A DNA stretch of 64,000 nt, from positions 30,932 through 94,931 of the forward strand of contig CBFIBF010000001.1 of assembly GCA_965660795.1 (NCBI GenBank), given 5' to 3'. The DNA comes from Gammaproteobacteria bacterium (GTDB lineage Bacteria; Pseudomonadota; Gammaproteobacteria; GCA-002705445; GCA-002716945). The position numbers and the translations under genes were made by a program. Below, in pieces: positions 11,263 to 64,000 of this stretch. Numbering within the stretch: the first letter of the stretch is position 1; every line of letters starts with the position of its first letter. The notes beneath the pieces were generated by a model. It searched no databases. It had not been told where the DNA came from and saw only the letters and a program-made list of their open reading frames with translations.

Positions 11263-11264
11263 TT

Positions 11265-12927: not shown

Positions 12928-12931
12928 ATTG

Positions 12932-13809: not shown

Positions 13810-13811
13810 TT

Positions 13812-13884: not shown

Positions 13885-13892
13885 CGAATATA

Positions 13893-34826: not shown

Positions 34827-35123
34827 ATGGTTTATCATACAATAAATGAGAACTTTATGAAAAAAATATCGGATTTCATACCAAAGAAAGTAATTGATAA
34901 AAAAGAGAATATAGAAAGTTTAAATCTAATTCTTAATGATTCAATCGAAACCAACTTAAAGAATAAAATACGTGTGATCAACTACAGCGAAACATGCATA
35001 ACAATAGAGTGTGATGATACCTCAATTGCCAGTATCATGCGATTTGAAAAGGACAAATACTTGGATATATTTAACGAGAATGATTTAAGTAATATTAAAG
35101 AACTTAAAGTAAGAGTCAGATAG
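34827..35123 (+). CDS. DUF721 / DciA-like small protein
   Basis: 98 aa with an [31 protein letters not shown] pattern resembling DUF721. It lies between lpxC and secA on the opposite strand, which is where Pseudomonas-type genomes carry a DUF721 gene. Confidence 0.45.
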
Positions 35124-36024: not shown

Positions 36025-36088
36025 AAGATGATTCTACCAAAGTGTTATAATTGTTACAAATATATTAATATTAGACAATAAACAGGAA

Positions 36089-37333: not shown

Positions 37334-37361
37334 GTAACAATATTATATCTCATTTAAGTAA

Positions 37362-42184: not shown

Positions 42185-42186
42185 TT

Positions 42187-45681: not shown

Positions 45682-45684
45682 TGT

Positions 45685-48430: not shown

Positions 48431-50135
48431 ATTCTATATTGCTATCAATTCTCATGATATGTTGCATGAATTCACCAAAAACTGGCGCAGCATGATAACC
48501 GCCTGAGCCTTGTCTATCTTTTGGTTCTCTTATAATTACAGCTGCAACATATTTAGGTATAGGATCTCCGACGATGCCAACAAATAATGCATTGTGATTA
48601 TTGGTATTATATTTTCCATTTTTTAGTAGTCTTACTGTACCTGTTTTACCATATGTCGTATATCCATTAACTTTAGCTTTTTTTCCTGTTCCATCATCTG
48701 AGTGAACTACTTGCTTCATCATATTAAGAACGATTGATGTTTTCTTGCTATCTAACAACTGATGATCCTTCTCAAAGTGTAATTCGTTACTATTGATATA
48801 CTTTAATTGAGTATAATGCCCCTCATTAGCCAATATTGTATACGCGTTCACTAAATGCATTAATGATACAGATATACCATACCCATAACCAATACTGTGA
48901 TGTTCTGATTCGGATATTTCATTAGTTGTTGGTAACTTTCCATTTCTAGATCCTGGAAGGTCTATATATAGTGAATGTCCAAATCCAAATTTCTCAAGAT
49001 TACTGATTAGTTGTTTCTTTGATAGCATTGTTGATACTCTAGCCGCACCAATGTTGCTCGAGTACTTAATGATATCACCTGATGAAACTTTCCCTAAAAA
49101 TTTCCAATCCTTAATTTCTTTATCATCAAGCTTTATGATTCCTGGGGCAGTATCAATGATCGTATCATGATTAATCAGACTATGATGAAGTCCAGCATAA
49201 ATTATAAAGGGTTTTATGGTTGATCCTGGCTCTATCAAATCATGAATAATTCTGTTCTTGATTTTTTCACCTGAATAACTTGTTCTTGTTTCTGGATCAA
49301 AAGAAGGATAATTTGCCATTGACAAAATATTACCAGTAGCTGTCTCAACAAGAACAATAGATGCGCTGTCTGCCTCAAACTTCTTTACATATTTCTTCAA
49401 AACATCATATGCAATAATTTGTATTTGCTTATCAAGCGTAAGTGTTACGTCTAATCCAGCCTTAGATTTCTTTATGATTTCTAGCGTTTCAATTGCTCGA
49501 CCGATATTATCTTTTTTTATTTTTTTAATTCCATCTGAAGGTTTTAAGACTTTGTTTTTGGCAAGCTCAATTCCTTCTTGTCCTACATCATCAACATTAG
49601 TAAATCCTAAAACATTAGAAAATGCTTCACCTCCTAAATAAGACCTTTTACTCTCATTGATGAAATAAATATAAGAATTTTTATATTTTTCAATCTTTGT
49701 AAACTCTAATTTTGAAATATGTCTTTTTAAATAATATTCCTTTTTATCTTTATTTCTATATATTGCTTTGCTGATTTTCTGGTAAGGAATATCAATAATT
49801 TCTGAAATTTTTTTTAAATCATCTTTATATTCTGATGTATAAAGCTTGCTTGGATTAATACATAAAGTTTTTGAGGGCAATGACATTGCTAATATATTTT
49901 TATTTCTATCAAATATAATTCCGCGCTGCTCTTTAGTTATTATATTTTGTATCTGTCTTTTTTTCCCCTCATTGATTATATTTTGCTTGCAGGTACTTTC
50001 ATTGAAATAAAAGCAATCCGTGCCTTTGATTTGGATGAAATATAATCTAATAATAATTATTAGAAGTGTAATGGAGGCTATTATTACGAATAATAATAGT
50101 CTCCATTTTTCATTTTTTACTTTACTATCAATCAG
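48414..50135 (-). CDS. ftsI: Peptidoglycan D,D-transpeptidase FtsI (PBP3). The true start is unresolved: the track ORF starts at the first ATG (49886), but the transmembrane N-terminus lies upstream.
   Basis: The 490-aa track ORF has PBP dimerisation and transpeptidase motifs (STIKP, SSN, KTGT). The same frame stays open upstream to 50144 and encodes ...KWRLLLFVIIASITLLIIIIRLYFIQIKGTD...QRGIIFDRNKNILAMSLP. That is the canonical FtsI cytoplasmic, transmembrane and pre-PBP segment, but it has no in-frame ATG, GTG or TTG. Candidate starts are CTG at 50135 or ATT at 50132. Alternatively ATG at 50113 is one base out of frame at an A-run. Confidence 0.75.
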   Translation of the reverse strand: MIDSKVKNEKWRLLLFVIIASITLLIIIIRLYFIQIKGTDCFYFNESTCKQNIINEGKKRQIQNIITKEQRGIIFDRNKNILAMSLPSKTLCINPSKLYTSEYKDDLKKISEIIDIPYQKISKAIYRNKDKKEYYLKRHISKLEFTKIEKYKNSYIYFINESKRSYLGGEAFSNVLGFTNVDDVGQEGIELAKNKVLKPSDGIKKIKKDNIGRAIETLEIIKKSKAGLDVTLTLDKQIQIIAYDVLKKYVKKFEADSASIVLVETATGNILSMANYPSFDPETRTSYSGEKIKNRIIHDLIEPGSTIKPFIIYAGLHHSLINHDTIIDTAPGIIKLDDKEIKDWKFLGKVSSGDIIKYSSNIGAARVSTMLSKKQLISNLEKFGFGHSLYIDLPGSRNGKLPTTNEISESEHHSIGYGYGISVSLMHLVNAYTILANEGHYTQLKYINSNELHFEKDHQLLDSKKTSIVLNMMKQVVHSDDGTGKKAKVNGYTTYGKTGTVRLLKNGKYNTNNHNALFVGIVGDPIPKYVAAVIIREPKDRQGSGGYHAAPVFGEFMQHIMRIDSNIEYAGSR

Positions 50136-51261
50136 CTTGTTGTCTTAGAAATGCTGGTATGTCTATTGAAGTTTGATCTTCTTGTCCAGATAGATCTACA
50201 TGCTCAATATTATTATTGGAGTTTTGAAAGCTTTTAACACTGTTCATGTTTTCTTTAGGTTGTTCTTCTAAAGAAGGTTCAGTAGTTACAACATCTGCTA
50301 CATTGTTTTGTACAAAACCTGTTGCAATTATAGTAACTCTCAAGTCTCCTATATTATCATCTTCTTTAATACAGCCGGTGATAATCTTTGCGTCTTCATG
50401 TGCAATTTCTCTGATTTTATTTCCAATAACTTCAAATTCATCTGTAGTCAAATCTGAACCAGATGTAATGTTAACAAGAACGCCGCTTGCGCCTTTAAGG
50501 CTTATATTATCAAGTAAAGGGCTGCTAAGTGCTGTAGTAACAGCTTCCTCAGCTCTATTTTCACCAGATGAAACACCAGAGCCCATCATTGCCTTGCCCA
50601 TTCCTGACATTACGGTTTTAACATCTGCAAAATCAACATTCATAAAACCTCTAATAGTTATAATTTCTGTTATCCCTTTGACAGCACCTCTTAGCACGTC
50701 ATTAGCGTTTTCAAATGATGAAAATATGGATTCTCCTCCGCCATATACCTCTTTAAGTTTTGAATTTGGTATTACAATGAGTGAATCCACCCATTGTTCT
50801 AGATTATCTATGCCTTCTTGTGCATTTGCCATTCTCTCTGGACCCTCAAAATCGAATGGTTTTGTCACTACAGCAACTGTCAGTATACCTAAATCCCTAG
50901 CAATCTGGGCAATAACTGGTGCTGCGCCTGTGCCTGTTCCACCACCCATACCAGCGGCTATGAAAAGCATATCTGCTCCTTCAATTGACTCTTTTAGAGT
51001 TTCGCTTGCTTCAAGTGCTGCTTGTCTGCCTTTTTCAGGATCTGCGCCAGCTCCTAATCCTTTAGTTATTTCAGAGCCTATCTGAACCGTGACTGCGCCG
51101 TCTATATCCCTTAGGGCTTGTACATCAGTATTTGCAATTAAAAAATCTGCCCCATGAATTTGAGACTTAAGCATCGACATAATAGCGTTACCACCGCCAC
51201 CGCCTACACCAATAACTTTGATAACCGCATTTTGATTATAATTATTTACTATTTCAAACAT
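50128..51261 (-). CDS. ftsZ: Cell division GTPase FtsZ
   Basis: 377 aa with the GGGTGTG tubulin signature and the conserved C-terminal peptide DIPAFLRQQAD. Confidence 0.97.
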   Translation of the reverse strand: MFEIVNNYNQNAVIKVIGVGGGGGNAIMSMLKSQIHGADFLIANTDVQALRDIDGAVTVQIGSEITKGLGAGADPEKGRQAALEASETLKESIEGADMLFIAAGMGGGTGTGAAPVIAQIARDLGILTVAVVTKPFDFEGPERMANAQEGIDNLEQWVDSLIVIPNSKLKEVYGGGESIFSSFENANDVLRGAVKGITEIITIRGFMNVDFADVKTVMSGMGKAMMGSGVSSGENRAEEAVTTALSSPLLDNISLKGASGVLVNITSGSDLTTDEFEVIGNKIREIAHEDAKIITGCIKEDDNIGDLRVTIIATGFVQNNVADVVTTEPSLEEQPKENMNSVKSFQNSNNNIEHVDLSGQEDQTSIDIPAFLRQQAD

Positions 51262-51270
51262 GGTGTCCTC

Positions 51271-51540
51271 CTATTGATCCATATTCATGATTAAAATTCT
51301 TTCTTTATTTGGCAGCTGCATATTAAGAGCCTTACCTAGACTATTTTTCTGTAAAACTTTATCTGTAATGTCAGCTTTATCTTTTAGCAACTGTCGATAT
51401 GATTCAGATAAATAATAATGTTTCTTTTCGTTTTCAGATATTTCAATGTTCAAGATTCTATTTTGATATTTTATAAAAATCACTCCAAAAGCTGAAATGG
51501 TTATAAGTAAAATTAAAACAAAAGAAGCTGTCAAATTCAT
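51271..51540 (-). CDS. ftsL: Cell division protein FtsL
   Basis: 89 aa with a single transmembrane helix plus coiled coil, sited between rsmH and the downstream division genes. Confidence 0.75.
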   Translation of the reverse strand: MNLTASFVLILLITISAFGVIFIKYQNRILNIEISENEKKHYYLSESYRQLLKDKADITDKVLQKNSLGKALNMQLPNKERILIMNMDQ

Positions 51541-52469
51541 ATTGATTTCTCCAATACATTTATTTTTGCTGATCTTGATCTTATATTTTCTATGACTTCA
51601 CTTTGAGATGGTTTAATTTTTTTTATTAAGTTAAATAACTTTTTAAGAAATTCATTTTTTATAGGTATTTTTCTAGGTGTAGATAAATTATGATCGGTCA
51701 ATATCATAAAATCTTTTATAACTCGTTCTTCTAGTGAATGATAAGTTATAAGAACTAATCTACCTTTAGGAGCTAGTATGCTGTATGATTTTTCTAAGAT
51801 ACTTTTGAGAACATCTAGTTCCTTATTGACAAAGATTCTCAAAGCTTGAAAAGATCTGGTTGCATTATGTTTATTCTTATCATTAACTAAAACAGATTTG
51901 TTGATTATATTCACTAGCTCGAGAGTACTATTAATTGGGCTCAATGCTCTATGTTTGATTATGTTTTTAGCAATTCTTTTTGAGAATTTTTCCTGCCCAT
52001 ATACTCTTAAGATGCTCTCAATATCTTTTTCTGGTAACTCATTTATATATTCTGAGGCTTTTTTGCCATAATTTTGATTGAATCTCATATCTAAAGGCGC
52101 ATCTTTATTGAAACTAAACCCTCTGTCTGCATCATCTAAGTGGACAGAAGAAACACCAAGATCGAACAAAATACCGTTAACTGATCCATATACATTCCAT
52201 GTCCTAGCATATTCATCAAGAGAAGAGAAACATCCATGTTTTAGGGTAAACCTATTCTCTTGCGCAAATTGTTTTTTATTATAATCAATAGCATCCTTGT
52301 CTTTATCAACCGCAAAAATCTTTGCGTCCTGATTAGTATTCTCTAATATTGAAATTGAGTGGCCGCCATATCCAAGAGTAGCATCTATATATACTCCACT
52401 CTTATCGGTTATCAGATGCTTAATTGCTTCATTCTTCATTACTGGTATATGGAACTGAGTATTATTCAT
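51537..52469 (-). CDS. rsmH: 16S rRNA (cytosine1402-N4)-methyltransferase RsmH (MraW)
   Basis: 310 aa with a SAM motif (YIDATLGYGGHS) and conserved RsmH regions. Confidence 0.93.
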   Translation of the reverse strand: MNNTQFHIPVMKNEAIKHLITDKSGVYIDATLGYGGHSISILENTNQDAKIFAVDKDKDAIDYNKKQFAQENRFTLKHGCFSSLDEYARTWNVYGSVNGILFDLGVSSVHLDDADRGFSFNKDAPLDMRFNQNYGKKASEYINELPEKDIESILRVYGQEKFSKRIAKNIIKHRALSPINSTLELVNIINKSVLVNDKNKHNATRSFQALRIFVNKELDVLKSILEKSYSILAPKGRLVLITYHSLEERVIKDFMILTDHNLSTPRKIPIKNEFLKKLFNLIKKIKPSQSEVIENIRSRSAKINVLEKSI

Positions 52470-53144: not shown

Positions 53145-53287
53145 TTATCAACACTATATGACTTATTTTTAACATATGCAAGTAGTAATAGAGATAAACT
53201 AATGAAAATGTAGATAAATGAAGATTAAAATAACTAAAATATTAATTTTTATATATATTTCAGTTACTTATCGTATAATATTAATTA

Positions 53288-53616
53288 GAGAGAGTTAATC
53301 TATAAGCCGGGTTCTGTCGTGTACAGCTATTTATCTTGAATTATTGTCACCAATAATCTCATTAGCAGCAACCATGTGATTATATTGGGATGAATCACAA
53401 ATTTGCCTTGCTCCAAGTGGGGTTTACTTATGCCTACTTTGTTACCTCAGTAGCGGTAGGCTCTTACCCTACCTTTTCACCCTTACCTTTAAACAGGCGG
53501 TTATTTTCTGCAGCACTTTCCAAAACTCACGTTTTCCAGGTGTTACCTGGCACTTTTTCCCTGGAGCCCGGACTTTCCTCTATGTAATACATAGCAGCTG
53601 TATGATTAACTCTCGT
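53288..53616 (-). ncRNA. rnpB: RNase P RNA (bacterial type A)
   Basis: On the minus strand: GAGGAAAGUCCGGGCUCCAGGGAAAAAGUGCCAGGUAACACCUGG (P4 and the universally conserved region), and near the 3' end CGACAGAACCCGGCUUAUAG matching E. coli M1 RNA. The 5' segment 53614..53604 (GAGAGUUAAUC) pairs with the 3' segment 53300..53290 to form P1. It is locally GC-richer than its surroundings. The ends are approximate (about 10 nt). Confidence 0.88.
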
Positions 53617-55443: not shown

Positions 55444-56052
55444 ATGTCGACTAAATTACAAAAAGATGATATTTCTATTGCCATTTTAGCTGGCGGAAAA
55501 TCATCAAGAATGGGTGGTAATAATAAAGGTCTCATGAAGCTAAATAATAAGCTTGTTTTGTCAAGGCTAATATCTATTGCATGTAATTACTCATCTGATG
55601 TTTTTGTTATTGCAAATGATCTACTAGATGAATATAGAAAAATTCATCAAAACGTTTATTCAGATATTCTTGAAGATTATCAAGGGCCATTATCTGGTAT
55701 ATACTCTGCGCTTTCGTATTGTAAAAATCAATATTTAATCACCTTGCCATGTGATGGACCATTCCTCTCTAAAGAATATTTTGAAACTTTGACTGAATTT
55801 AATAATGAAAAAAAGATCTTTGTAACAAAGACAGGTGATAGGCTTCAGCCTGTGCATGCAAGAATTGATACATCGCTAAAAAATAATTTAAAACTCTTCT
55901 TACAATCTGGAGAGAGAAAAATAGATAAGTGGTATACTTCATGCGGATATGAAGTGGTTTTATTTGATGAAAGTGATGAAATGTTTATAAATCTAAATAC
56001 AAAAATAGATATTGAAGAAAATATTGAATTAATTAAAAAACTATATGGATAA
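55444..56052 (+). CDS. MobA-like nucleotidyltransferase (molybdenum cofactor guanylyltransferase family)
   Basis: 202 aa with AILAGGKSSRMGGNNKGL and PCDGPFL, matching MobA motifs. First gene of the C1-cofactor cluster. Confidence 0.7.
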   Translation: MSTKLQKDDISIAILAGGKSSRMGGNNKGLMKLNNKLVLSRLISIACNYSSDVFVIANDLLDEYRKIHQNVYSDILEDYQGPLSGIYSALSYCKNQYLITLPCDGPFLSKEYFETLTEFNNEKKIFVTKTGDRLQPVHARIDTSLKNNLKLFLQSGERKIDKWYTSCGYEVVLFDESDEMFINLNTKIDIEENIELIKKLYG

Positions 56053-56575
56053 ACATAGAATAGCATGGTGTATTACTGGTTCGGGTCATTACCTAAAAGA
56101 ATCAATTGATCTTATGCTTACATTAAATCATGTAGATTTATATTTGAGTAAAGCAGGTGAAGAGGTACTCAAATGGTATGACTATGATCTTGATATTTTC
56201 AAGAAAAAGAAGATTAAAATATTCAAAGATATAACTGCCAGCTCGGCACCAGTTAGTTTATTATATGAGTCTGTTTATAAACTAGTTGTTATCTCGCCTG
56301 CTACCTCAAATACAATAGCTTTCATGGCACAGGGTATGTCTAATAACCTTGTGACAAATATGTTTGCACAAGCTGGTAAATGTGGAATTAAAACACTAGT
56401 TTTTGCATGCGATACTGAACCAGTTGTAATTACACAGGCACCTAAAAAATTAGTTACTTTATACCCAAGAGAAATAGATTTAAAAAATTTTAGAGCTTTG
56501 AAAAAATTTAAAAATGTATCCGTTGTTGATAACGTAGCATCTTTGAAAAAAGCTTTAAGTAAATTAATTAAATGA
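56045..56575 (+). CDS. Flavoprotein-family protein (CoaC/EpiD/AfpA fold); candidate dihydromethanopterin reductase (DmrX/AfpA-like)
   Basis: 176 aa with AWCITGSG and ISPATSNTIA, the two signature motifs of the FMN-binding flavoprotein family. Overlaps its neighbours (8-nt and 4-nt overlaps). Confidence 0.55.
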   Translation: MDKHRIAWCITGSGHYLKESIDLMLTLNHVDLYLSKAGEEVLKWYDYDLDIFKKKKIKIFKDITASSAPVSLLYESVYKLVVISPATSNTIAFMAQGMSNNLVTNMFAQAGKCGIKTLVFACDTEPVVITQAPKKLVTLYPREIDLKNFRALKKFKNVSVVDNVASLKKALSKLIK

Positions 56576-57954
56576 AAAATATTTTATTCATTACAGGTAA
56601 GTTGGCTGAAAAAGGCCTTAAGACAGTCCTTGATGGTATTGAAGAAAAAAAATTTAATTACAAAATAAAAAATCTTAATGTGAATGTAGCGGCTCTTTTA
56701 ACAACAGACATGATTGAGAGACGTATTGGTGATGTTAGTCAGTTTGATGAGATTATAATTCCTGGAAGAGTGCGTGGGGATATAGAACGTCTTGAAAAGA
56801 TTGTTAAAAAGAAGGTAACCAGAGGTCCTGATGAATTAAAAGACTTACCAATAATGTTCGGAGCAAAAGCTGTCAAATATGATCTTTCAAAATTTGAAAC
56901 AGCAATATTTGGGGAAATTACAGATGCATTAAATATGACTATTGAAGCTGTAATAGAAAGAGCAGAATATTTTAGATCAGAAGGAGCTGACGTAATAGAC
57001 ATTGGTTGTTTGCCAAATAAAGAATTCCCTCATCTTGAAGAATTAGTCCAGGAACTGAAAAATAGAAATTTCTATGTCAGTATTGATTCTCATAATACAG
57101 ATGAATTGATTCGTGGTTCTAAAGCTGGTGCAGATTATCTCTTAAGTATTAAAAGTGAGACATATCACATACTTGAAAACCTTGACTCATATCCTGTTCT
57201 TATCCCATCAGATAATAATTTACCTGAATTTTATAACCTAATTGATAGAGCTATAAAGGATAATTTAACTTTTATAGCGGATCCAATTCTGGACCCTGTT
57301 TCATATGGGTTTACTAAAAGTTTAATGAGGTATGTAAATTTGAGAGAAAAATATCCTGACATTCACATAATGATTGGTATAGGAAATATCACTGAACTTA
57401 CTCATGCTGATACTACGGGAATAAATATGATAATGCTAGGTATCGTAGAAGAACTCAAATTAAACCACATATTAACAACCCAGGTCAGTAGACATTGTTC
57501 GACGGTCATAAGAGAAACTGACCTTGCAAGGAGAATAATTCATGCGGCTTCTGAAAATAATATTACACCAAAGCATATAAATGATGGATTAATGGCAAAT
57601 CATGATCATAAAGATTATCCTTTATGCTCAGATGAACTAAGTGAAATGCAAACAAAAATCAAAGACAAGAACTATCGTATTTATGTCAATGATGATGGGA
57701 TACATTTATTTAATAAAAATATATACAAAGTTTTTAGTGACCCTTTTAAGTTTTATGAGTATCTTGATTTGAATGATGATACAGGGCATGCATTTTATCT
57801 TGGTGTTGAATTAGCAAGGGCACAAATCGCATTTCAATTAAAGAAGAATTATCATCAAGATGAGGAACTTACTTGGGGGTGTTTAGTTGATAAAGAAATT
57901 GATGATATGATAAGTGAAAAGAAATTAGGTCCGACATTCAAAAAAATAAAATGA
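56572..57954 (+). CDS. Dihydropteroate-synthase-like pterin-binding protein (H4MPT-pathway type) with a C-terminal extension
   Basis: 460 aa carrying Pterin_bind-like motifs (GADVIDIGCLPN, SIDSHNTDELIRGSKAGADYL, MIGIGNITELTHADTTGIN), followed by about 170 residues of unassigned sequence. Confidence 0.6.
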   Translation: MKNILFITGKLAEKGLKTVLDGIEEKKFNYKIKNLNVNVAALLTTDMIERRIGDVSQFDEIIIPGRVRGDIERLEKIVKKKVTRGPDELKDLPIMFGAKAVKYDLSKFETAIFGEITDALNMTIEAVIERAEYFRSEGADVIDIGCLPNKEFPHLEELVQELKNRNFYVSIDSHNTDELIRGSKAGADYLLSIKSETYHILENLDSYPVLIPSDNNLPEFYNLIDRAIKDNLTFIADPILDPVSYGFTKSLMRYVNLREKYPDIHIMIGIGNITELTHADTTGINMIMLGIVEELKLNHILTTQVSRHCSTVIRETDLARRIIHAASENNITPKHINDGLMANHDHKDYPLCSDELSEMQTKIKDKNYRIYVNDDGIHLFNKNIYKVFSDPFKFYEYLDLNDDTGHAFYLGVELARAQIAFQLKKNYHQDEELTWGCLVDKEIDDMISEKKLGPTFKKIK

Positions 57955-58523
57955 TTCATGAAGTAATTGTAACTACCTTTAATAAAAAGAAAGAGGTTCA
58001 CATAGCGCCAATGGGTGTAAAGTTTGTTGATTTTGATAACAAGCAATGTGTTCAAATTTCTCCATTCAAACCGTCTCATACATTAAATAATCTTATTGAT
58101 ACAAAAGTGGCTACAATTAATTATGTTGATAACGTGAAAGTGTTTGCTGGCATTGTCACAGAGGAAAAAAAGTCATGGGATTTAGATCAGGTTTCAGATA
58201 GTTGTGTGCCGCATTTGGATATTACAAATACATATATGAACGTTAGTGTTTGTCAGGAAAATGATGATGATGTAAGGCCAAATATTATATGTAATATAGA
58301 AAATACTAAAATACTAAGGCCTTTTATGGGCTTTAATAGAGCTCAGTTTTCTGTGATTGAACTAGCAGTGCTTTCTACACGATTAGGAAGAATAGAGGAT
58401 GATAAAGTAAAAAGAGAGTATGAGTATCTAAAAATAGGGATAGATAAGACTGCAGGTGAAGACGAAAGAGCAGCATGGAAATGGATAGAAAACAAAATTA
58501 TGAAATATTTTAATAATGATTAA
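57951..58523 (+). CDS. DUF447-like (flavin-reductase-like split-barrel) H4MPT-pathway-associated protein
   Basis: 190 aa with N-terminal EVIVTT...HIAPMGV, typical of the FMN-binding split-barrel / DUF447 family found in H4MPT gene clusters. Confidence 0.45.
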   Translation: MIHEVIVTTFNKKKEVHIAPMGVKFVDFDNKQCVQISPFKPSHTLNNLIDTKVATINYVDNVKVFAGIVTEEKKSWDLDQVSDSCVPHLDITNTYMNVSVCQENDDDVRPNIICNIENTKILRPFMGFNRAQFSVIELAVLSTRLGRIEDDKVKREYEYLKIGIDKTAGEDERAAWKWIENKIMKYFNND

Positions 58524-59220
58524 GATTCTTGGTAGTATCAAAGATGTTAGCGAGGCGAAGGTTATCTCGAAATACGATTTTGATATTATTGATATAAAAA
58601 ATGTCATGGATGGTGCACTTGGATATGTGGGAGATGACGTTGTAAGCAACATCTCTAAAATGTTTAAAAATAAAACTTTAAGTGTTACTGCAGGAAATGA
58701 TTTACATCCAAACTCACAAAAGCAGATATCCAGATTGATGTTGATGAATAAGCTTGGGGTTAAATATATTAAAATAGGAGTTTATGGTGTGGATAACATC
58801 AATGAACATAAAGAATTTTTAAAATCAGTTTCAGGATTATCAATCAAAGTTGTGGGTGTTATGTTTGCGGAGTATATTACAAATGAAAGTCAGATAGATT
58901 CATTTTGTGAATTAAATTATCACGGACTGATGATTGATACTGAGAACAAAAATGCTGGGTCTTCCATAGATATTCTTCCAGATCATCTTATTGAGTATTT
59001 CACTGAAAAATGTAGGCAACATAATAAGCTGTGTGGAATTTCAGGTTCCTTGTCATCAAAAAATTTAGAAAAGGTTTTTTCTTTTAGTCCTAATTTTATT
59101 GGATTAAGAGGTGCTATTTGTTCTCAATCTAAAAGAGAAACAATAGATTCTCTAAACTGTGAGAAAGTTTTAGAATATATTAAGAGAGTTAATCAGAAAA
59201 TGCATCTAAAAGTGGTTTAA
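58516..59220 (+). CDS. MfnB-like (5-formylfuran-3-yl)methyl phosphate synthase (DUF556 family)
   Basis: 234 aa with N-terminus MIKILGSIKDVSEAKVISKYDFDIIDIKNVMDGALGYV, similar to MfnB (MxLLVSP..EA..A...GADIIDVKNP.EGSLGA). Confidence 0.55.
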   Translation: MIKILGSIKDVSEAKVISKYDFDIIDIKNVMDGALGYVGDDVVSNISKMFKNKTLSVTAGNDLHPNSQKQISRLMLMNKLGVKYIKIGVYGVDNINEHKEFLKSVSGLSIKVVGVMFAEYITNESQIDSFCELNYHGLMIDTENKNAGSSIDILPDHLIEYFTEKCRQHNKLCGISGSLSSKNLEKVFSFSPNFIGLRGAICSQSKRETIDSLNCEKVLEYIKRVNQKMHLKVV

Positions 59221-60547
59221 CTTTAGAAATTGTCTCATTATACTCACTGCGAATGTCAGAATCATAGACAATTCCTCCTCCGCCCCAGAAATATAAATTA
59301 TTATCAATAGATAACATAGATCTGATTGATATATTTAAATCAGTTTTTTCATCAAAACTAATATAACCTATAGATCCACAGTATATCGATCTTTCATCAG
59401 GCTCAAGTTCCTCAATAATTTCCATCGCACGAAGTTTCGGAGCACCTGTAATTGAACCTCCTGGGAAAGCATCTCTTATCAGATTATAAATATTTGAACT
59501 TTCATCAATTTCTCCACTTATTGTACTCACAAGATGATGGACGTTAGCAAATGTTTCAATTTCAAATAATTTATCAACTTTTACACTACCCTTTTTACAG
59601 TTAATGCTCAAATCATTCCTAAGTAAATCCACAATCATCAAGTTTTCAGCCATATCTTTTTCAGATGATTTAAGATCATCGATGTTATTTTTGTTAATGA
59701 TTGGATTATCAGATATTGGTCTTGTTCCTTTAATGGGTTTAGTCTCAATGATATTATTTTTTATTGATAAAAATCTCTCTGGAGAGAATGATAAAATTTT
59801 CCCGTTATGCGAGTTAAAATAAACTGAATAGGGGGATGAAAAGGTTTTATTAAGCTGTTGATAAAGATTATATTCATCTCCCTCATATGCGAGTGAAAAT
59901 CTTTGAGCTAAATTAACCTGATAACAATCCCCTGCTTTAATATATTCTAGTATTTTCATGAGCTTCATCTCATATAAAGCATAATTCATATTTGATTCAC
60001 AGCTTGAAGTTATTTTAAAGGAATCTTTACTGTTTAATTTTTTATTTTCTGGAGAGTAATTGCTTATGCTTTTAATTAATGTATTAATTTCATAATAAAC
60101 GATAAAAGCTTTTTTTTTATGATAATCATAAATTACTGCCCAATCATAAATCCCGAAAGCAAAAGTAGGAAAGTTCAAGCTTTTATGTAAGCTTTTAATT
60201 TGATGTAGTTTTTTTCCATAATCATATGCAATATGTCCAATAGCACCTCCACAAAATGGAATATCATCAGCAGACTCACATTTATAATTACTCATTATCT
60301 CTCTAAGTAAATCAAATGGACATGTATCAATCTCCTTTGTAAAATTTTCATCCTCTATTAATAAAACAGAATCGTCTTTGAAAATAATTTTTTTTATGGG
60401 ATTCGATGTAATTATATCAAATCTTTGATCAGGATATTTTTCATAATTACTGTTCAAGAAAACAGCCCAGTCATTCTCTTTTATAAACTCAAAAATTTTA
60501 TGAGATGGTATATTAAAATCAAGTTCAATAAATTTATAATTCATCAC
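59189..60547 (-). CDS. Chorismate-utilising enzyme, aminodeoxychorismate synthase component I-like (PabB-like)
   Basis: 452 aa with C-terminal chorismate-binding motifs (FPGGSITGAPKLRAMEIIEELE, RSIYCGSIGY, GGGGIVYDSDIRSEYNET). Confidence 0.7.
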   Translation of the reverse strand: MMNYKFIELDFNIPSHKIFEFIKENDWAVFLNSNYEKYPDQRFDIITSNPIKKIIFKDDSVLLIEDENFTKEIDTCPFDLLREIMSNYKCESADDIPFCGGAIGHIAYDYGKKLHQIKSLHKSLNFPTFAFGIYDWAVIYDYHKKKAFIVYYEINTLIKSISNYSPENKKLNSKDSFKITSSCESNMNYALYEMKLMKILEYIKAGDCYQVNLAQRFSLAYEGDEYNLYQQLNKTFSSPYSVYFNSHNGKILSFSPERFLSIKNNIIETKPIKGTRPISDNPIINKNNIDDLKSSEKDMAENLMIVDLLRNDLSINCKKGSVKVDKLFEIETFANVHHLVSTISGEIDESSNIYNLIRDAFPGGSITGAPKLRAMEIIEELEPDERSIYCGSIGYISFDEKTDLNISIRSMLSIDNNLYFWGGGGIVYDSDIRSEYNETISKVKPLLDAFSD

Positions 60548-61583
60548 TTATCCTATTCAAAACAAAAGCAGGAAAAAGGTGTGACAGTGATTCTCCGCCA
60601 TTAATAGAAGTCTTTAGAATATGGTTAATATTCTTAAATTTATATCCGTTAGCAGTGCAGATATCTGAAATAATATTTACTCCTAATCCCAAACCAATTA
60701 CCTTAAAACTAGAATCTAAAAAATATTTATCAACTAAATATGATAAGTTTTTATTAATATTCTGCATTTGTCTGTAATGTAATTTATTGCACAAATAGTT
60801 CAAAAGTTTCTTTTTACTTTTATCATAGTCAAAACCAAATGATCTTGATACTCTTTTATATGAATTTATTACAGAATAATTTAAGCCATCTGCAGATTTA
60901 GAATAAATATCCTTATGGCATAATTTTTTTAATATAATATTTACGTCCGCCATTGTTGAAAAATTTTCTGGAATTATACTATACTCTCTATTTTTATAAT
61001 TAATATTATTCATGAGAGAGAATAATGGAGTCCTTGAACATCCAGTATATAAGAGTTCTCTATTTTGAATGCCACTGAGATCAGATGATCTTTGATTTAA
61101 AATCTTTCCATCCTTCAATAGGATAAAGTCACATGTAGTAGACCCTAAATCTATAGCAATTGCATTATCATAATAGTTAGATAAATAAAGGGCCGATGCA
61201 AACCAGTTATAAGATCCTATATAATCAGTATTAAATAGATTAGATTTTTTAATATCTATGAATCCATCTTTTGTGAACACGCTAGAGGTAATTTTTGTTT
61301 TTTTGATTTTATCTATTATATATTTAACACCCTTTTTTCTACTTTCAAAACAATCGCACATCTCAGCAGACATAGTAAAATAATTTTTGATTTGAGAATT
61401 TTTATTACTAAATTGATTTGTAACTCTGGTTATGATTTCATCTAGAGCATCATGTTCGCTCCAAAAGTCAAAATCAATAATGTCATACCAAATAATATTA
61501 TTTGATTCTGGTTCAGCACAGTATTTAATATGTGCGCCGCCAATATCCCATCCTATTTTTGTTATATAAGGTTTAATTGACAT
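60534..61583 (-). CDS. Hydantoinase/oxoprolinase-like H4MPT-linked C1-pathway protein (MfnF-type)
   Basis: 349 aa with an N-terminal GWDIGGAHIK actin-like-fold ATPase motif (the hydantoinase_A N-terminus) and a second ASKHG-like motif (AIDLGSTTCD). Confidence 0.5.
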   Translation of the reverse strand: MSIKPYITKIGWDIGGAHIKYCAEPESNNIIWYDIIDFDFWSEHDALDEIITRVTNQFSNKNSQIKNYFTMSAEMCDCFESRKKGVKYIIDKIKKTKITSSVFTKDGFIDIKKSNLFNTDYIGSYNWFASALYLSNYYDNAIAIDLGSTTCDFILLKDGKILNQRSSDLSGIQNRELLYTGCSRTPLFSLMNNINYKNREYSIIPENFSTMADVNIILKKLCHKDIYSKSADGLNYSVINSYKRVSRSFGFDYDKSKKKLLNYLCNKLHYRQMQNINKNLSYLVDKYFLDSSFKVIGLGLGVNIISDICTANGYKFKNINHILKTSINGGESLSHLFPAFVLNRISDEL

Positions 61584-62476
61584 GTTCTACCTGCTATATC
61601 ACATATGGTATCTTCAATATAATCAAGACAACTAGTATTCTTACACTTCTGTAACATTGACATGGATGTTGTATATCTTGGATTTACTTCGATAAGAAAA
61701 AACTCTCCCTTGTATTCAATAAAGTCTATACCCACAAAACCTCTAAGATTAGGAAGGATTGATATGACGTCATCAATAAATTTAAATATTAAATTTTTAT
61801 CAGTTGGATATAAATTGACTAGTATGGATTTAACTTGAATTCTATCCTTAGACACAGTCATATTATGTTTATTAATTGATAAAACTCTATAATTATTCTC
61901 AGATACATGAAGATTTACACTATGTGAATTTCCTGGAATATACTTTTCAGTAATTTTATTTAAATCTTCATATTTACCTTTTTTTACAAAATAAGTATCA
62001 GAACAACCACATCCGAATCTATCTTTTGTAATTAATAAAGTATTCTTTACATCTGAGTCATAAGTATCAGGATTAAGTATATTATTTTCAGTACAAATTT
62101 TCTTTAGCCTGATCTTATCAGTAGCAATTAATATCGTTCTTAAATCTGATAAATACAAGTTTTCTATATTGGGCGATAGCTTTTTTATATAATTATATGA
62201 TATGAAATCATTCTCAGGACATATGGGTATAAAATAATCATATTGGTTTATGAATTCTGCGTCATATATGAGTTGCAAATTATTTTGATTAACAATAATA
62301 GCTTCTTTTCTGTTGGCATATTTATGTCGGTAATCACAAAAGAAGCTTATTTGATATTTAGTTGTGTCAATAAGAGACCTTAGAATTATATTTGCTTCTG
62401 TGAGAAGATGATGGTCAAGTTTATTTTCAATCAACCCGCCGCCTGTAATATACTCAAATATAAGAATTCTTTTCAT
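61562..62476 (-). CDS. ATP-grasp ligase (MptN/MfnD-type)
   Basis: 304 aa with an ATP-grasp C-terminal motif (FFLIEVNPRYTTSM) and the small size typical of RimK-like cofactor ligases. Confidence 0.55.
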   Translation of the reverse strand: MKRILIFEYITGGGLIENKLDHHLLTEANIILRSLIDTTKYQISFFCDYRHKYANRKEAIIVNQNNLQLIYDAEFINQYDYFIPICPENDFISYNYIKKLSPNIENLYLSDLRTILIATDKIRLKKICTENNILNPDTYDSDVKNTLLITKDRFGCGCSDTYFVKKGKYEDLNKITEKYIPGNSHSVNLHVSENNYRVLSINKHNMTVSKDRIQVKSILVNLYPTDKNLIFKFIDDVISILPNLRGFVGIDFIEYKGEFFLIEVNPRYTTSMSMLQKCKNTSCLDYIEDTICDIAGRTCQLNLI

Positions 62477-62477
62477 T

Positions 62478-63155
62478 ATGAATATTATACCTGCAATTGA
62501 TATAAAAGGCGGAATGGTTGTAAGAGCTATGGGAGGGAATCGAAAATATTATCAACCGGTTCACATCAGCTTAAATCAATCATCAGACCCTATTGTTTTT
62601 ACAAGAAAGATTATTCAATTGTATCATCCGTCAGTAATATATCTTGCTGATCTAGATTCGCTAAATAATGATGGAGATAATACAAATATCATTATTGAAC
62701 TATGTAATTTATTCAAAAATATAATATTTTGGGTAGATGTAGGAAACAGGAAAATAAGTTCATTAGAAAAAAATAATATAATTCATATAATGTGCAGCGA
62801 ATGCTTAAAAAAAATAAAAAATTTTAATTATATTTATAAAAATCATATTTACTCATATGACTATAAGGACGGTATAATTGGCTTTAAATATTTTCAAAAG
62901 CTTGATTCTAAATATAAAAATAAAATTATATTAATGAATATGTCAGATATAGGTACCAGCAAAGGTCCAGATTACAAGCACATAAAAAGAACCCGTAGAA
63001 GCTCAAAAAAAGAATATTATGTTGCTGGAGGAATTAGCTCGGTTTTTGATATTATCAGGCTGCGCAATATGAAAGTTAATGGAGTGATTGTTTCATCTAT
63101 TCTATTTAATACAAAAACCAATAAATACTTAATAAAGAAAAGAGCCAGTAGTTAA
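62478..63155 (+). CDS. HisA/HisF-family (beta/alpha)8 barrel protein (HisA-like, H4MPT-cluster type)
   Basis: 225 aa with N-terminus MNIIPAIDIKGGMVVR (HisA-like phosphate-binding start) and a C-terminal AGGISS glycine-rich phosphate-binding motif. Confidence 0.55.
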   Translation: MNIIPAIDIKGGMVVRAMGGNRKYYQPVHISLNQSSDPIVFTRKIIQLYHPSVIYLADLDSLNNDGDNTNIIIELCNLFKNIIFWVDVGNRKISSLEKNNIIHIMCSECLKKIKNFNYIYKNHIYSYDYKDGIIGFKYFQKLDSKYKNKIILMNMSDIGTSKGPDYKHIKRTRRSSKKEYYVAGGISSVFDIIRLRNMKVNGVIVSSILFNTKTNKYLIKKRASS

Positions 63156-63185
63156 CTGGCTCTAATATCATCATATCAAAAATGA

Positions 63186-63698
63186 TTATTTTTCGAACGG
63201 ATGCTCTGTAGCTTTCTTAGCAACTACGTCTTGAGCTTTTGGCTCACCGCTAACAGCATTTTTAATAGCCATTTTTGTTGCTTCAAAATTATAATCATAG
63301 ATACGTTTGTTATCATCAGCGTCCCAATGAATAAACACACCTACACAGATGAAAATATCATCAGCCTCATCAGCTGGAATTGTTCCATCTTCTACACATT
63401 CAGTAACAGCTCTTGCAACTGCTGCTTGCGCTGGACCAAACATTTGAACTGCTTGCTTAGCGCCTTTGATTGTAACTTTGTTGAACATAGCTGTGCTAGG
63501 TTTACATGGTAAGTTAGGTGAAACTACAGCTAATAAAGATGTAAAACCATCTTTGTTATTACATAATGTGTTACAAAATGCATCTTCAACTGCAGAACCA
63601 CGTGGTCCCATTAATAAGTCGATATGTGAAATTTCGTTATCCCCACCTTCGGTTACAACAAGTGCTTCACCAACTAATACTTTGTCGACTACTGCCAT
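63186..63698 (-). CDS. fae: Formaldehyde-activating enzyme (5,6,7,8-tetrahydromethanopterin hydro-lyase)
   Basis: 170 aa that aligns along its whole length with methylotroph Fae from memory: VGEALV...[11 protein letters not shown]...AFCN...[23 protein letters not shown]....[14 protein letters not shown]...[10 protein letters not shown]....VGVFIHW.A.D...I..YN.EATK..I..AV.GEPKA. Confidence 0.88.
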
Positions 63699-63723: not shown

Positions 63724-64000
63724 TTAATAAACGGACACTTCACTACTGGACTCTATACCAATGAAATAATCATATATCATCATCGATACAACCAATAGAT
63801 CAGCTGTTGTCCCTGGATTCACCCGAGCCATTTTAAAATGTTTATCAAGAGATATTAGATTTTTACCCCATGACTCATATCGAGTATCCCCGTCTAGTAT
63901 TTTTATCAAATCAGACGCCTCATTACTAGTCTTTTTTGCTATTTTATTGCCATATTTTCGTCTTAAATGAGAATCTGTGTACTTTTCTAGAGTTTTAAGG
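63724..64000 (-). CDS. CitG/MdcB-like triphosphoribosyl-dephospho-CoA synthase family protein, C-terminal part only. The gene starts beyond the window end; the TTG at 63909 used by the track is probably internal.
   Basis: The frame is open from the window edge: ...DTRYESWGKNLISLDKHFKMARVNPGTTADLLVVSMMI, matching the CitG C-terminal NLSPGGSADLLA region. Confidence 0.5.
   Translation of the reverse strand, partial: LKTLEKYTDSHLRRKYGNKIAKKTSNEASDLIKILDGDTRYESWGKNLISLDKHFKMARVNPGTTADLLVVSMMIYDYFIGIESSSEVSVY

What the first reader, a model, noticed from the sequence alone, without database searches (positions are those of the whole stretch)
58516..62476. Methanofuran-type biosynthetic genes (MfnB-like, MfnF-type hydantoinase-like, ATP-grasp) interleaved with H4MPT genes
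The N-terminus of the 58516..59220 product matches MfnB, the enzyme making the furan moiety of methanofuran. The 60534..61583 product has the hydantoinase-like fold of the MfnF-type H4MPT-linked family. The 61562..62476 product is a small ATP-grasp ligase such as MfnD or MptN. The methanofuran-side and H4MPT-side genes alternate between strands with overlaps. This suggests a single co-regulated module making both C1 carriers.
Basis: partly seen in the sequence, partly recalled or inferred. Interest (0 to 1): 0.5.

Follow-up and report, generated by a model that had tools for sequence, protein, structure and literature searches.

The report
Methylofuran and methanopterin cofactor gene island
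This is the well-known "archaeal-like" gene island that methylotrophic bacteria use to make the two one-carbon carriers methylofuran and dephospho-tetrahydromethanopterin, found here in ordinary form in an uncultured low-GC marine gammaproteobacterium.

Summary
All ORFs exist at the stated coordinates and match the stated families: MfnB/Orf22 (PF04476, E 1e-39, all six compared active-site residues kept), MfnF/Orf9 (TIGR03123, E 2e-60) and an ATP-grasp ligase.

The ligase is the MfnD-like "Orf1" paralogue. It is not MptN, MyfA or MyfB.

The neighbours are DmrB-type dihydromethanopterin reductase, Orf20, Orf19, PabB, Orf17 (HisA/F-like, essential for methylofuran in M. extorquens), Fae and the 3' end of orf7.

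Content and order (…orf7-fae | orf17 | orf1-mfnF-pabB | mfnB-orf19-orf20-dmrB) match the canonical island of Methylorubrum, Methylococcales and Methylophilaceae. Of the 82 loci analysed, 80 fetched with an alignment of this ATP-grasp protein and two by exact look-up of one of its homologues, orf1>mfnF recurs in 75 and orf17<>orf1 in 64. The assignment of these genes to methylofuran was published in 2021.

The genes are under purifying selection (dN/dS about 0.15).

It is not one operon. There are at least four transcription units on two strands, and co-regulation is untested. No mfnA, mfnC or mfnE lies in the window.

Verdict: an ordinary new member of a known kind, low interest. Minor oddities of this clade are mfnE missing from its usual place after pabB and mobA coupled to the operon.

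The parts
55444..56052 (+). mobA (molybdenum cofactor guanylyltransferase). It is the first gene of the + strand operon, overlaps the next gene by 8 nt, and is divergent from dusA across a 50-nt spacer.
   Evidence: TIGR02665 at 155.9 bits against a cut-off of 151.85, and PF12804. It is linked to the island only in the marine low-GC clade, in 5 of 82 loci.
56045..56575 (+). DmrB/AfpA-type flavoprotein, predicted dihydromethanopterin reductase (last step of dH4MPT synthesis).
   Evidence: PF02441 at E 1.9e-19 and TIGR02699 AfpA at E 3.7e-26. PDB 3wis/4mwg 'putative dihydromethanopterin reductase (AfpA)' at E 8.2e-48.
56572..57954 (+). Orf20: DUF6513 plus a dihydropteroate-synthase-like pterin-binding protein (H4MPT biosynthesis side).
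   Evidence: TIGR00284 at E 3.4e-49 and PF20123 at E 5e-25. It is 82-83% identical to the relatives' copy.
57951..58523 (+). Orf19: DUF447 protein, assigned to the H4MPT biosynthesis side by association only.
   Evidence: PF04289 at E 8.6e-18 and PF20766 at E 1e-12. It belongs to the known orf19-orf20-afpA-orf21-orf22 island (PMC3615186).
58516..59220 (+). MfnB/Orf22: 4-(hydroxymethyl)-2-furancarboxaldehyde-phosphate synthase, which makes the furan ring of methylofuran from two glyceraldehyde-3-phosphate.
   Evidence: PF04476 at E 1.1e-39 and PDB 4rc1 at E 1.4e-11. Window residues D26, K28, K86, D141, K145 and R207 align with Mj D25, K27, K85, D151, K155 and R217. dN/dS is 0.147 against L084.
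59189..60547 (-). PabB: aminodeoxychorismate synthase component I, which supplies p-aminobenzoate for the pterin cofactor(s). Last gene of the orf1-mfnF-pabB operon. GTG start.
   Evidence: TIGR00553 at 344.8 bits against a cut-off of 328.4, plus PF00425 and PF04715. mfnF>pabB adjacency occurs in 35 of 82 loci.
60534..61583 (-). MfnF/Orf9: hydantoinase-A-like enzyme predicted to join the furan pyrophosphate F1-PP to glutamyl-tyramine or glutamyl-tyrosine.
   Evidence: TIGR03123 at E 1.8e-60, NF040623 MfnF at E 6.2e-45 and PF01968. PDB 3c0b at E 3.5e-32. It sits directly after orf1 in 75 of 82 loci.
61562..62476 (-). Orf1: MfnD-like ATP-grasp ligase, predicted tyramine (or tyrosine):L-glutamate ligase. 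First gene of the - strand operon.
   Evidence: PF02655 at E 5.7e-24. NF040722 MfnD_Meth aligns over model positions 1-259 of 288 at 68 bits. PDB 3df7 at E 2.7e-11. It is distinct from the MyfA and MyfB paralogues. dN/dS is 0.155.
62478..63155 (+). Orf17: HisA/HisF-like TIM-barrel protein, essential for methylofuran synthesis in M. extorquens at an unknown step. Its start codon is 1 nt from the orf1 start, head to head.
   Evidence: TIGR00734 hisAF_rel at E 1.2e-28 and PF00977. The orf17<>orf1 pairing occurs in 64 of 82 loci. The genetics are in PMC8141765. dN/dS is 0.141.
63141..63163 (-). Terminator-like hairpin (9-pair stem, 5 G-C pairs, T-rich tail) just downstream of fae. It overlaps the 3' end of orf17.
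   Evidence: This is a consensus match only.
63186..63698 (-). Fae: formaldehyde-activating enzyme (formaldehyde + H4MPT gives methylene-H4MPT).
   Evidence: TIGR03126 at 235.6 bits against a cut-off of 118, and PF08714 at E 1e-64.
63724..64000 (-). 3' end (91 codons plus stop) of orf7, a CitG-like H4MPT-linked protein cut by the window end.
   Evidence: The translation matches the C-terminus of the PF01874 gene upstream of fae in L081.

Best explanation
The region is one half of the canonical proteobacterial 'archaeal-like' C1 island. It encodes enzymes for two cofactors of the H4MPT-linked formaldehyde oxidation pathway, plus Fae.

**Methylofuran side**
- MfnB/Orf22 condenses two glyceraldehyde-3-phosphate into the furan 4-HFC-P.
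- An unlinked aminotransferase (MfnC) and a kinase (MfnE) convert this to F1-PP.
- The Orf1 MfnD-like ATP-grasp ligase makes gamma-glutamyl-tyramine or gamma-glutamyl-tyrosine.
- MfnF/Orf9 couples that product to F1-PP.
- Orf17 is needed at an unknown early step.
- MyfA and MyfB then add the polyglutamate tail. In the closest relatives these genes lie just past the window end.

**Pterin side**
- PabB supplies pABA.
- Orf20 (DHPS-like) and Orf19 act in pterin-arylamine assembly.
- DmrB reduces H2MPT to H4MPT.

**Use of the cofactors.** Fae loads formaldehyde onto H4MPT. The finished methylofuran serves Fhc, which releases formate.

**Expression.** The genes are expressed from at least four tightly packed transcription units:
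1. mobA-dmrB-orf20-orf19-mfnB on the + strand.
2. orf1-mfnF-pabB on the - strand.
3. orf17 on the + strand.
4. …orf7-fae on the - strand.

**Status of each step.** Shown here: family membership, paralogue identity, conserved active-site residues of MfnB, conserved synteny and purifying selection. Inferred from the literature: every enzymatic step. The bacterial roles of Orf9, Orf22 and Orf1 are themselves assigned by homology (PMC8141765).
For: - **Family matches:**. PDB relatives are 4rc1, 3c0b, 3df7 and 3wis.
- **MfnB active site:** all six compared residues are conserved. Lys27 as the Schiff-base residue, and two Lys plus two Asp as essential, come from PMC6604932. Lys155 and R217 come from PMC11365854.
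- **Three ATP-grasp paralogue classes co-occur in most of the loci long enough to show them.** The window protein is best hit to the Orf1 class in all 82 loci.
- **MfnD model:** it aligns full length with Orf1-type proteins (68, 104 and 93 bits). It aligns only partially with OrfY-type proteins (37 and 26 bits). Orf5-type proteins hit MptN/RimK models. This agrees with PMC8141765.
- **Closest relatives:** they continue past fae with orf7, myfB, mch, myfA, mtdB, mptG and fhcB/A/D. This is the Mext_1830-1835 order of M. extorquens (PMC8141765).
- **Synteny counts:**
- **Purifying selection:** dN/dS is 0.14-0.16 for mfnB, orf1 and orf17.
- **Chromosomal context:** the dcw cluster and RNase P RNA lie next door. 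GC is uniform at 0.27-0.33 and the same flanks occur in relatives.
Against: - NCBIfam scores for the archaeal MfnB, MfnF and MfnD equivalogs are all far below the curated cut-offs. Identity of substrate and product with the archaeal enzymes is therefore not guaranteed.
- No mfnA, mfnC or mfnE is in the 64-kb window.
- mfnE is missing from the position it holds after pabB in 28 of 35 pabB-containing loci.
- fhc, mch, mtdB, mptG, myfA and myfB are seen only in relatives, not in the window.
- No expression or metabolite data exist.
- The roles of Orf19, Orf20 and Orf17 are known only by association or genetics.
Confidence: 0.88

Rival explanations
1. The ATP-grasp protein at 61562..62476 is a polyglutamate-elongating ligase (MyfA/OrfY or MyfB/Orf5) or an MptN-type H4MPT:glutamate ligase. 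It would not then be the MfnD-like first-glutamate ligase.
For: All of these are ATP-grasp enzymes of the same island. MyfA shares partial similarity with MfnD (PMC8141765). The window protein gives weak phmmer cross-hits to OrfY-type proteins at 16-40 bits.
Against: - Relatives carry separate OrfY-type (357 aa) and RimK/MptN-type (290 aa) genes in addition to the orthologue of the window protein.
- The window protein has no RimK/MptN family hit, whereas Orf5-type proteins score 173-213 bits on MptN_Meth.
- Its position, orf17<>orf1>mfnF, is that of the paralogue class most similar to MfnD, which PMC8141765 identifies as Orf1 (Mfla_1650) in M. flagellatus. The Mfla_1650 sequence itself was not compared.
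Confidence: 0.04
2. The MfnB-, MfnF-, Orf1- and Orf17-like genes serve methanopterin rather than furan-cofactor biosynthesis. This follows older annotations, such as the 'dihydroneopterin aldolase' and UPF0264 labels, and the proposal that MJ0703/Orf17 acts in H4MPT synthesis.
For: Some JGI records name PF04476 homologues 'dihydroneopterin aldolase'. TIGR03123 is named only 'H4MPT-linked C1 transfer pathway protein'.
Against: - The archaeal MfnB reaction is biochemically defined and the catalytic residues are kept (PMC6604932).
- The M. extorquens orf17 deletion loses methylofuran but still makes methenyl-dH4MPT (PMC8141765).
- The same paper treats Orf22, Orf21 and Orf9 as MfnB, MfnE and MfnF homologues.
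Confidence: 0.04
3. All the genes form one co-transcribed, co-regulated operon making both carriers. This is the strong form of the first reader's reading.
For: Extreme packing with overlapping stop and start codons and conserved linkage across phyla.
Against: - Genes lie on both strands in four blocks, so one transcript is impossible.
- A terminator-like hairpin follows fae.
- In other lineages the blocks are separated or rearranged (five separate islands in M. trichosporium, PMC3615186).
- The promoter scan was uninformative: 46 sites found against 58.8 expected.
Confidence: 0.1
4. The island is a decaying relic in a streamlined genome and no longer makes functional cofactors.
For: - mfnE is absent from its usual position.
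- The methylofuran genes are much more divergent from the nearest relatives (47-56% aa) than their H4MPT neighbours (65-85%).
Against: - All ORFs are intact with conserved lengths.
- dN/dS is 0.14-0.16 against close relatives.
- The MfnB catalytic residues are intact.
- Fae is 100% conserved.
- The same rate difference between families is seen in distant comparisons, so it is intrinsic to the families.
Confidence: 0.03

Closest known systems
'Archaeal-like' H4MPT/methylofuran gene cluster of Methylorubrum extorquens (Mext_1830-1835: myfA-mch-myfB-orf7-fae-orf17; orf19-orf20-afpA-orf21-orf22; orf9). Sources: PMC8141765, PMC3615186.
   Same: - Same protein families.
- Same orf7-fae-orf17 order.
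- Same mixing of furan-side and pterin-side genes.
- Orf22 = MfnB, Orf9 = MfnF, and Orf17 is essential for methylofuran.
   Different: - The window has an Orf1/MfnD-like ligase, which M. extorquens lacks.
- pabB is embedded in the island.
- The order is dmrB-orf20-orf19-mfnB without orf21 (mfnE) between.
- mobA is coupled at the head of the operon.
- Gene packing is much tighter.
Gamma- and betaproteobacterial layout (Methylococcales, Methylophilaceae, Thiodiazotropha, Methylobacillus flagellatus with orf1 = Mfla_1650 and orfY = Mfla_1659).
   Same: mptG-mtdB-myfA-mch-myfB-orf7-fae | orf17 | orf1-mfnF-pabB | mfnB-orf19-orf20-afpA is the same layout as in the window and its close relatives. The presence of Orf1 mostly goes with the tyramine type of methylofuran in PMC8141765: five of the six strains with an MfnD homologue make it, with exceptions in both directions.
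   Different: - In 28 of 35 such loci mfnE follows pabB. Here pabB overlaps convergent mfnB and mfnE is not in the window.
- Sequence identity to these lineages is only 21-31% for the methylofuran enzymes.
Archaeal methanofuran pathway MfnA-F of Methanocaldococcus jannaschii (MfnB MJ1099, MfnD MJ0815, MfnF MJ0840).
   Same: - Homologous enzymes for furan synthesis, Glu-tyramine ligation and coupling.
- MfnB catalytic residues are conserved.
- An uncultured archaeal contig (L074) even shows orf17-mfnD-mfnF linkage.
   Different: - All scores are below the NCBIfam equivalog cut-offs.
- The bacterial product is methylofuran with a long polyglutamate tail that acts as a prosthetic group of Fhc (PMC6926001).
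- The pathway runs oxidatively.

Membership tests
MfnB / 4-HFC-P synthase (PF04476, Orf22) | Full-length match to the family profile above the Pfam gathering score | tested here: met
   137 bits against a cut-off of 22.4, over residues 5-214 of 234.
MfnB / 4-HFC-P synthase (PF04476, Orf22) | Catalytic residues: Schiff-base Lys27, a second Lys, two Asp, plus Lys155 and Arg217 (Mj numbering) | tested here: met
   D26, K28, K86, D141, K145 and R207 align with D25, K27, K85, D151, K155 and R217 of 4rc1. Their roles come from PMC6604932 and PMC11365854. The numbering of D25, K85 and D151 is from my own recollection of Wang et al. 2015, Biochemistry.
MfnB / 4-HFC-P synthase (PF04476, Orf22) | NCBIfam equivalog cut-off for (5-formylfuran-3-yl)methyl phosphate synthase | tested here: not met
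   NF002575 scores 85 bits against 304. NF002573 scores 70 bits against 341. The best model is the unnamed subfamily NF002576 at 135 bits against 297. This fits a divergent bacterial clade.
MfnB / 4-HFC-P synthase (PF04476, Orf22) | Converts glyceraldehyde-3-phosphate to 4-HFC-P | not testable with these tools
   Needs an enzyme assay.
MfnF / Orf9 (TIGR03123, NF040623) | Profile match and hydantoinase-A-like fold | tested here: inconclusive
   E 1.8e-60 and E 6.2e-45, but below the cut-offs (204.9 against 244.1 bits; 153.8 against 520 bits). PF01968 is above its cut-off. PDB 3c0b matches at E 3.5e-32 over residues 10-308.
MfnF / Orf9 (TIGR03123, NF040623) | Conserved linkage to the other furan-cofactor genes | tested here: met
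   It lies immediately downstream of orf1 in 75 of 82 loci.
MfnD-like ligase (Orf1 class; NF040722) | ATP-grasp_3 domain with a full-length alignment to the MfnD model | tested here: met
   PF02655 at 85 bits. MfnD_Meth aligns over positions 1-259 of 288, but at 68 bits against a cut-off of 400.
MfnD-like ligase (Orf1 class; NF040722) | Orthology to the Orf1 paralogue rather than to MyfA or MyfB | tested here: met
   three paralogue classes, and the window protein belongs to the class that sits between orf17 and mfnF.
MfnD-like ligase (Orf1 class; NF040722) | Tyramine:L-glutamate ligase activity | not testable with these tools
   Not shown for any bacterial Orf1 either (PMC8141765).
MptN / MyfB (RimK-type glutamate ligase) | Match to RimK family or MptN profiles | tested here: not met
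   The window protein has no such hit at E<=1e-3. The true MyfB-type genes of the relatives score 173-213 bits.
Proteobacterial 'archaeal-like' H4MPT/methylofuran island | Gene content and order: orf7-fae-orf17, orf1-orf9-pabB, orf22-orf19-orf20-afpA | tested here: met
   Literature orders are in PMC3615186 and PMC8141765.
Proteobacterial 'archaeal-like' H4MPT/methylofuran island | Presence of the pathway enzymes Fhc, Mch and MtdB, and of MptG, in the same genome | tested here: inconclusive
   They are present next to fae in the closest relatives L001, L002, L081 and L082. The window ends inside orf7, so they were not seen for this genome.
Single operon | All genes on one strand without internal terminators | tested here: not met
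   There are four blocks on alternating strands, and a terminator-like hairpin follows fae.

The most novel reading that the evidence does not exclude
In this streamlined, Sox-carrying marine gammaproteobacterial clade the kinase mfnE has dropped out of the otherwise conserved orf1-mfnF-pabB-mfnE operon. At the same time a MobA-type nucleotidyltransferase has become translationally coupled to dmrB-orf20-orf19-mfnB.

If mfnE is absent genome-wide, activation of the furan phosphate F1-P for the MfnF coupling step would have to be done differently. One possibility is nucleotidylation by the MobA-like enzyme instead of pyrophosphorylation.

The evidence does not exclude this. The simpler readings are that mfnE sits elsewhere in the genome and that mobA serves formate dehydrogenase.
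Probability: 0.05. Interest if true: 0.55.

Novelty: new member of a known kind. Interest (0 to 1): 0.15.

Why it matters
It adds little mechanistically. The gene set, its order and the assignment of these genes to methylofuran and dH4MPT synthesis are already published.

Its modest value is ecological. It shows a complete-looking, selectively maintained H4MPT/methylofuran module in an uncultured, ~30% GC marine gammaproteobacterial lineage. That lineage also carries sox genes. Its closest species representative in the genome collection is only about 50% identical in the methylofuran enzymes.

This supports formaldehyde and C1 oxidation capacity in that plankton group. The Orf1/MfnD-like ligase also points, weakly, to the tyramine type of methylofuran.

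Tried and rejected
- **Exact look-up of the window MfnB product.** It is not on record. The nearest sequences are short Logan contigs with 97% (MfnB) and 90% (Orf1) aa identity.
- **Naming the organism.** Cluster-member names, an AspRS homologue search (closest short metagenome contigs 95-98%, every other lineage 76% or less, the two named hits carrying only a phylum-level or no organism label) and five literature queries gave nothing beyond 'uncultured marine Gammaproteobacteria'. TMED127/Methylaequorales (PMC12542740) is alphaproteobacterial, so it is not this lineage. A SUP05/Thioglobaceae affiliation is only a guess from the sox genes and low GC.
- **Promoter scan.** It found fewer sites than shuffles (46 against 58.8), so it is uninformative in AT-rich DNA.
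- **Recent horizontal transfer of fae.** I considered this because Fae is 100% aa identical to L001 while the neighbouring genes are about 50%. I rejected it as the simplest reading: the nucleotide identity is only 91%, with 42 silent third-position changes. Lower synonymous divergence (0.24 against 0.36-0.56) fits codon bias of a highly expressed gene, but occasional exchange is not excluded.
- **mfnE absence as evidence of loss.** This is weakened by the fact that mfnE's position varies across lineages. It is absent downstream of mfnF/pabB in 40 of 72 informative loci.
- **Papers not held.** Kalyuzhnaya 2005 (PMC1151760) and Wang 2015 (PMC4524034) could not be read.
- **Not run.** Structure prediction and fold search were not run, because sequence-level PDB matches were already significant.

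Full report
**Observation**

The window is AT-rich (GC 0.27-0.35) bacterial chromosome. It carries a dcw cell-wall and division cluster at 35-53 kb, RNase P RNA at 53287-53613 and sox genes near 10.5-12.4 kb.

From 55.4 kb to the window end lies an uninterrupted run of tightly packed genes.

Profile searches give the following.

| Coordinates | Strand | Assignment | Key evidence |
|---|---|---|---|
| 55444-56052 | + | MobA | TIGR02665, just above cut-off |
| 56045-56575 | + | AfpA-type flavoprotein | Closest solved structure is the dihydromethanopterin reductase DmrB, 3wis/4mwg, E 8e-48 |
| 56572-57954 | + | Orf20: DUF6513 + dihydropteroate-synthase-like | TIGR00284, E 3e-49 |
| 57951-58523 | + | Orf19 | DUF447 |
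| 58516-59220 | + | MfnB/Orf22 | PF04476 4-HFC-P synthase, E 1e-39, whole length |
| 59189-60547 | - | PabB | TIGR00553, above cut-off |
| 60534-61583 | - | MfnF/Orf9 | TIGR03123 and MfnF with a Hydantoinase_A domain |
| 61562-62476 | - | ATP-grasp ligase | ATP-grasp_3; best NCBIfam model is MfnD |
| 62478-63155 | + | Orf17 | HisA/HisF-related (TIGR00734) |
| 63186-63698 | - | Fae | Well above cut-off |

The last 277 nt of the window encode the C-terminus of a CitG-like orf7.

Solved archaeal homologues support these assignments:
- M. jannaschii MfnB, 4rc1.
- M. maripaludis Q6M145, 3c0b.
- A chain deposited as a putative ATP-grasp superfamily protein, 3df7.

**Are they the real counterparts?**

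*MfnB.* The HMMER alignment to 4rc1 maps window residues D26, K28, K86, D141, K145 and R207 onto Mj D25, K27, K85, D151, K155 and R217.
- PMC6604932 states that two lysines and two aspartates are essential and that Lys27 forms the Schiff base.
- PMC11365854 names Lys155 as catalytic and R217 as a likely phosphate ligand.

The protein therefore does not group with unrelated aldolases.

*The ATP-grasp protein.* This was the key ambiguity. Hemmann et al. 2021 (PMC8141765) describe three ATP-grasp proteins in these islands:
- MyfA (OrfY), which adds the second glutamate.
- MyfB (Orf5, RimK/MptN-like), which elongates the polyglutamate tail.
- Orf1 (Mfla_1650), the protein most similar to archaeal MfnD.

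I analysed 82 loci. Eighty were fetched from species-representative genomes with an alignment of this protein. Two were fetched by exact look-up of the homologue P0110.

Three separate paralogue classes co-occur in most of the loci long enough to show them. The window protein always pairs with the class located between orf17 and mfnF.

The NCBIfam models separate the classes:

| Paralogue class | Model | Alignment | Score |
|---|---|---|---|
| Orf1-type (window, L081, Methylomonas L027) | MfnD_Meth | end to end | 68, 104, 93 bits |
| OrfY-type | MfnD_Meth | model positions ~140-254 only | 37, 26 bits |
| Orf5-type | MptN_Meth / RimK | full | 173-213 bits |

The window ligase is therefore Orf1/MfnD-like. 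It is not MptN-like and not RimK- or glutathione-synthetase-like.

**Context in relatives**

The closest genomes are uncultured marine 'Gammaproteobacteria bacterium' MAGs from Tara Oceans and the Black Sea, with GC 0.29-0.33 (L001-L004, L081, L082).

They share the window's order gene for gene, including the mobA-dusA-methyltransferase-mraZ flank. Past fae they continue with orf7 (CitG-like), myfB, mch, myfA, mtdB, mptG and fhcB-fhcA-fhcD.

The stretch myfA-mch-myfB-orf7-fae-orf17 is exactly the Mext_1830-1835 order of M. extorquens (PMC8141765).

Counts across all 82 loci:
- orf1>mfnF is adjacent in 75.
- orf17<>orf1 is divergent in 64.
- mfnF>pabB is adjacent in 35.
- The whole layout recurs in Methylococcales, Methylophilaceae, Thiodiazotropha, Burkholderiales, Ancylobacter and Gemmatimonadales.
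- One uncultured archaeal contig (L074) shows the orf17-mfnD-mfnF core.

Because most of these loci were retrieved with the ATP-grasp protein itself, the counts describe the neighbourhood of orf1 homologues and are not an unbiased genome survey.

The same islands are listed for Methylosinus trichosporium in PMC3615186 (mch-orf5-orf7-fae-orf17; orf19-orf20-afpA-orf21-orf22; fhcCDAB; orf9-mtdB). Their wide distribution is reviewed in PMC5020050. The thing is therefore a textbook island, and the window cuts it roughly in half.

**Mechanism**

Following the pathway proposed in PMC8141765:
1. MfnB/Orf22 makes the furan.
2. An unidentified MfnC-type transaminase and MfnE/Orf21 give F1-PP.
3. An MfnD homologue ligates glutamate to tyramine.
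4. MfnF/Orf9 couples the two halves to MYFR-Glu1.
5. MyfA and MyfB build the polyglutamate tail.
6. Orf17 is genetically essential at an unknown early step. The deletion mutant still makes methenyl-dH4MPT.

On the pterin side, PabB supplies pABA, Orf20 and Orf19 belong to the H4MPT biosynthesis set, and DmrB reduces H2MPT. Fae then loads formaldehyde onto H4MPT. Methylofuran works as the prosthetic group of Fhc (PMC6926001).

In PMC8141765 an MfnD homologue is present in five of the six strains that make tyramine-type methylofuran, but also in one of the three tyrosine-type strains. Orf1 therefore points only weakly to the tyramine type. That prediction also needs an mfnA, which I could not look for outside the window.

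**Functional status**

Comparison with near-identical metagenomic contigs (L083, L084) gives these dN/dS values:
- orf1: 0.155
- orf17: 0.141
- mfnB: 0.147
- fae: 0

The genes are therefore maintained by purifying selection.

**Regulation**

The gene orientation imposes at least four transcription units:
1. mobA-dmrB-orf20-orf19-mfnB (+), with 4-8 nt start/stop overlaps.
2. orf1-mfnF-pabB (-), with 22- and 14-nt overlaps.
3. orf17 (+).
4. …orf7-fae (-).

Other features of the packing:
- mfnB and pabB converge with a 32-nt overlap. The same overlap is seen in L081 and L082.
- The orf1 and orf17 start codons are 1 nt apart, head to head. Each promoter and ribosome-binding site must therefore lie inside the other gene.
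- A 9-bp G+C-rich hairpin with a T tail follows fae.

Each of the two multi-gene operons mixes furan-side and pterin-side genes. The promoter scan is uninformative in this AT-rich DNA.

**What is missing or unusual**

No ORF of at least 110 aa in the window belongs to the MfnA (PF00282), MfnC (aminotransferase) or MfnE (NF040622) families. tblastn with five bacterial MfnE sequences found nothing in the window.

In loci that have pabB after mfnF, mfnE follows directly in 28 of 35. The exceptions include the whole window clade and another low-GC marine MAG, L068. Across all layouts, however, mfnE's position is variable: it is absent there in 40 of 72 informative loci. This is weak evidence for loss.

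Conversely, mobA is coupled to the island only in this clade, in 5 of 82 loci. The ordinary explanation is that MGD is needed by formate dehydrogenase, which acts downstream of Fhc.

The four methylofuran genes are much more divergent from the nearest relatives (47-56% aa) than the pterin genes (65-85%) or Fae (98-100%). The same ranking holds in distant comparisons, so it reflects family-specific constraint.

**Verdict**

This is a new member, from an uncultured marine lineage, of a well-described kind of gene island. Interest is low.

Noticed in passing
window 63186-63698 (-) against L001 8780-9292, L002 and L081: Fae is 100% (L001) or 97.6% (L002, L081) identical in amino acids to MAGs whose flanking orf17 and orf1 are only about 50% identical. 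Nucleotide identity is 90-91%, with 42 silent third-position changes. Synonymous divergence is about half that of neighbouring genes (0.24 against 0.36-0.56). This indicates extreme constraint and codon bias, or occasional exchange.
   Followed up: partly
window 59189-59220, and loci L002-L004, L068, L081 and L082: mfnE (Orf21) follows pabB in 28 of 35 pabB-containing loci. It is missing there in the window clade, where pabB overlaps convergent mfnB by 32 nt. There is no MfnE-like sequence anywhere in the 64-kb window.
   Followed up: partly
window 55444-56052 (+): A bona fide-looking mobA overlaps dmrB by 8 nt and heads the dmrB-orf20-orf19-mfnB operon. This linkage occurs only in the marine low-GC clade, in 5 of 82 loci.
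   Followed up: partly
window 62476-62478: The start codons of divergent orf1 and orf17 are 1 nt apart. They are 0 to 20 nt apart, or overlap by 2 nt, in the other lineages looked at. The two promoters and 5' UTRs must therefore be embedded in each other's coding sequence, which could allow transcriptional interference or antisense effects.
   Followed up: no
window 35116-52469 (-): The dcw cluster has an unusual order. ftsZ (50128-51261) sits between ftsL (51271-51540) and ftsI (48414-49886), and ftsA (36089-37333) is followed directly by lpxC (35116-36024). FtsI as called is short (490 aa) and appears to lack an N-terminal membrane anchor. A 241-nt gap precedes it.
   Followed up: partly
window 10457-15092: Sulfur-oxidation genes lie here: cytochrome c, SoxY and SoxA/TsdA-type cytochrome on the + strand, and a YeeE/YedE-like sulfur transporter at 13893-15092 on the - strand. 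The host therefore combines thiosulfate oxidation genes with an H4MPT-linked C1 module.
   Followed up: no
window 12932-13906 (-) and 13813-13885 (-): The mechanical ORF (TTG start, 324 aa, weak DUF676 hit) overlaps tRNA-Lys(UUU) on the same strand. Its true start is probably downstream of the tRNA.
   Followed up: no
L074 (uncultured archaeon contig) and L073 (Promethearchaeota MAG): The archaeal contig L074 carries orf17-like, mfnD-like and mfnF-like genes in the same arrangement as the bacteria. This suggests that the Orf17-MfnD-MfnF linkage is shared with at least one archaeal lineage. It fits a role for the Orf17 family in furan-cofactor synthesis in archaea too.
   Followed up: no
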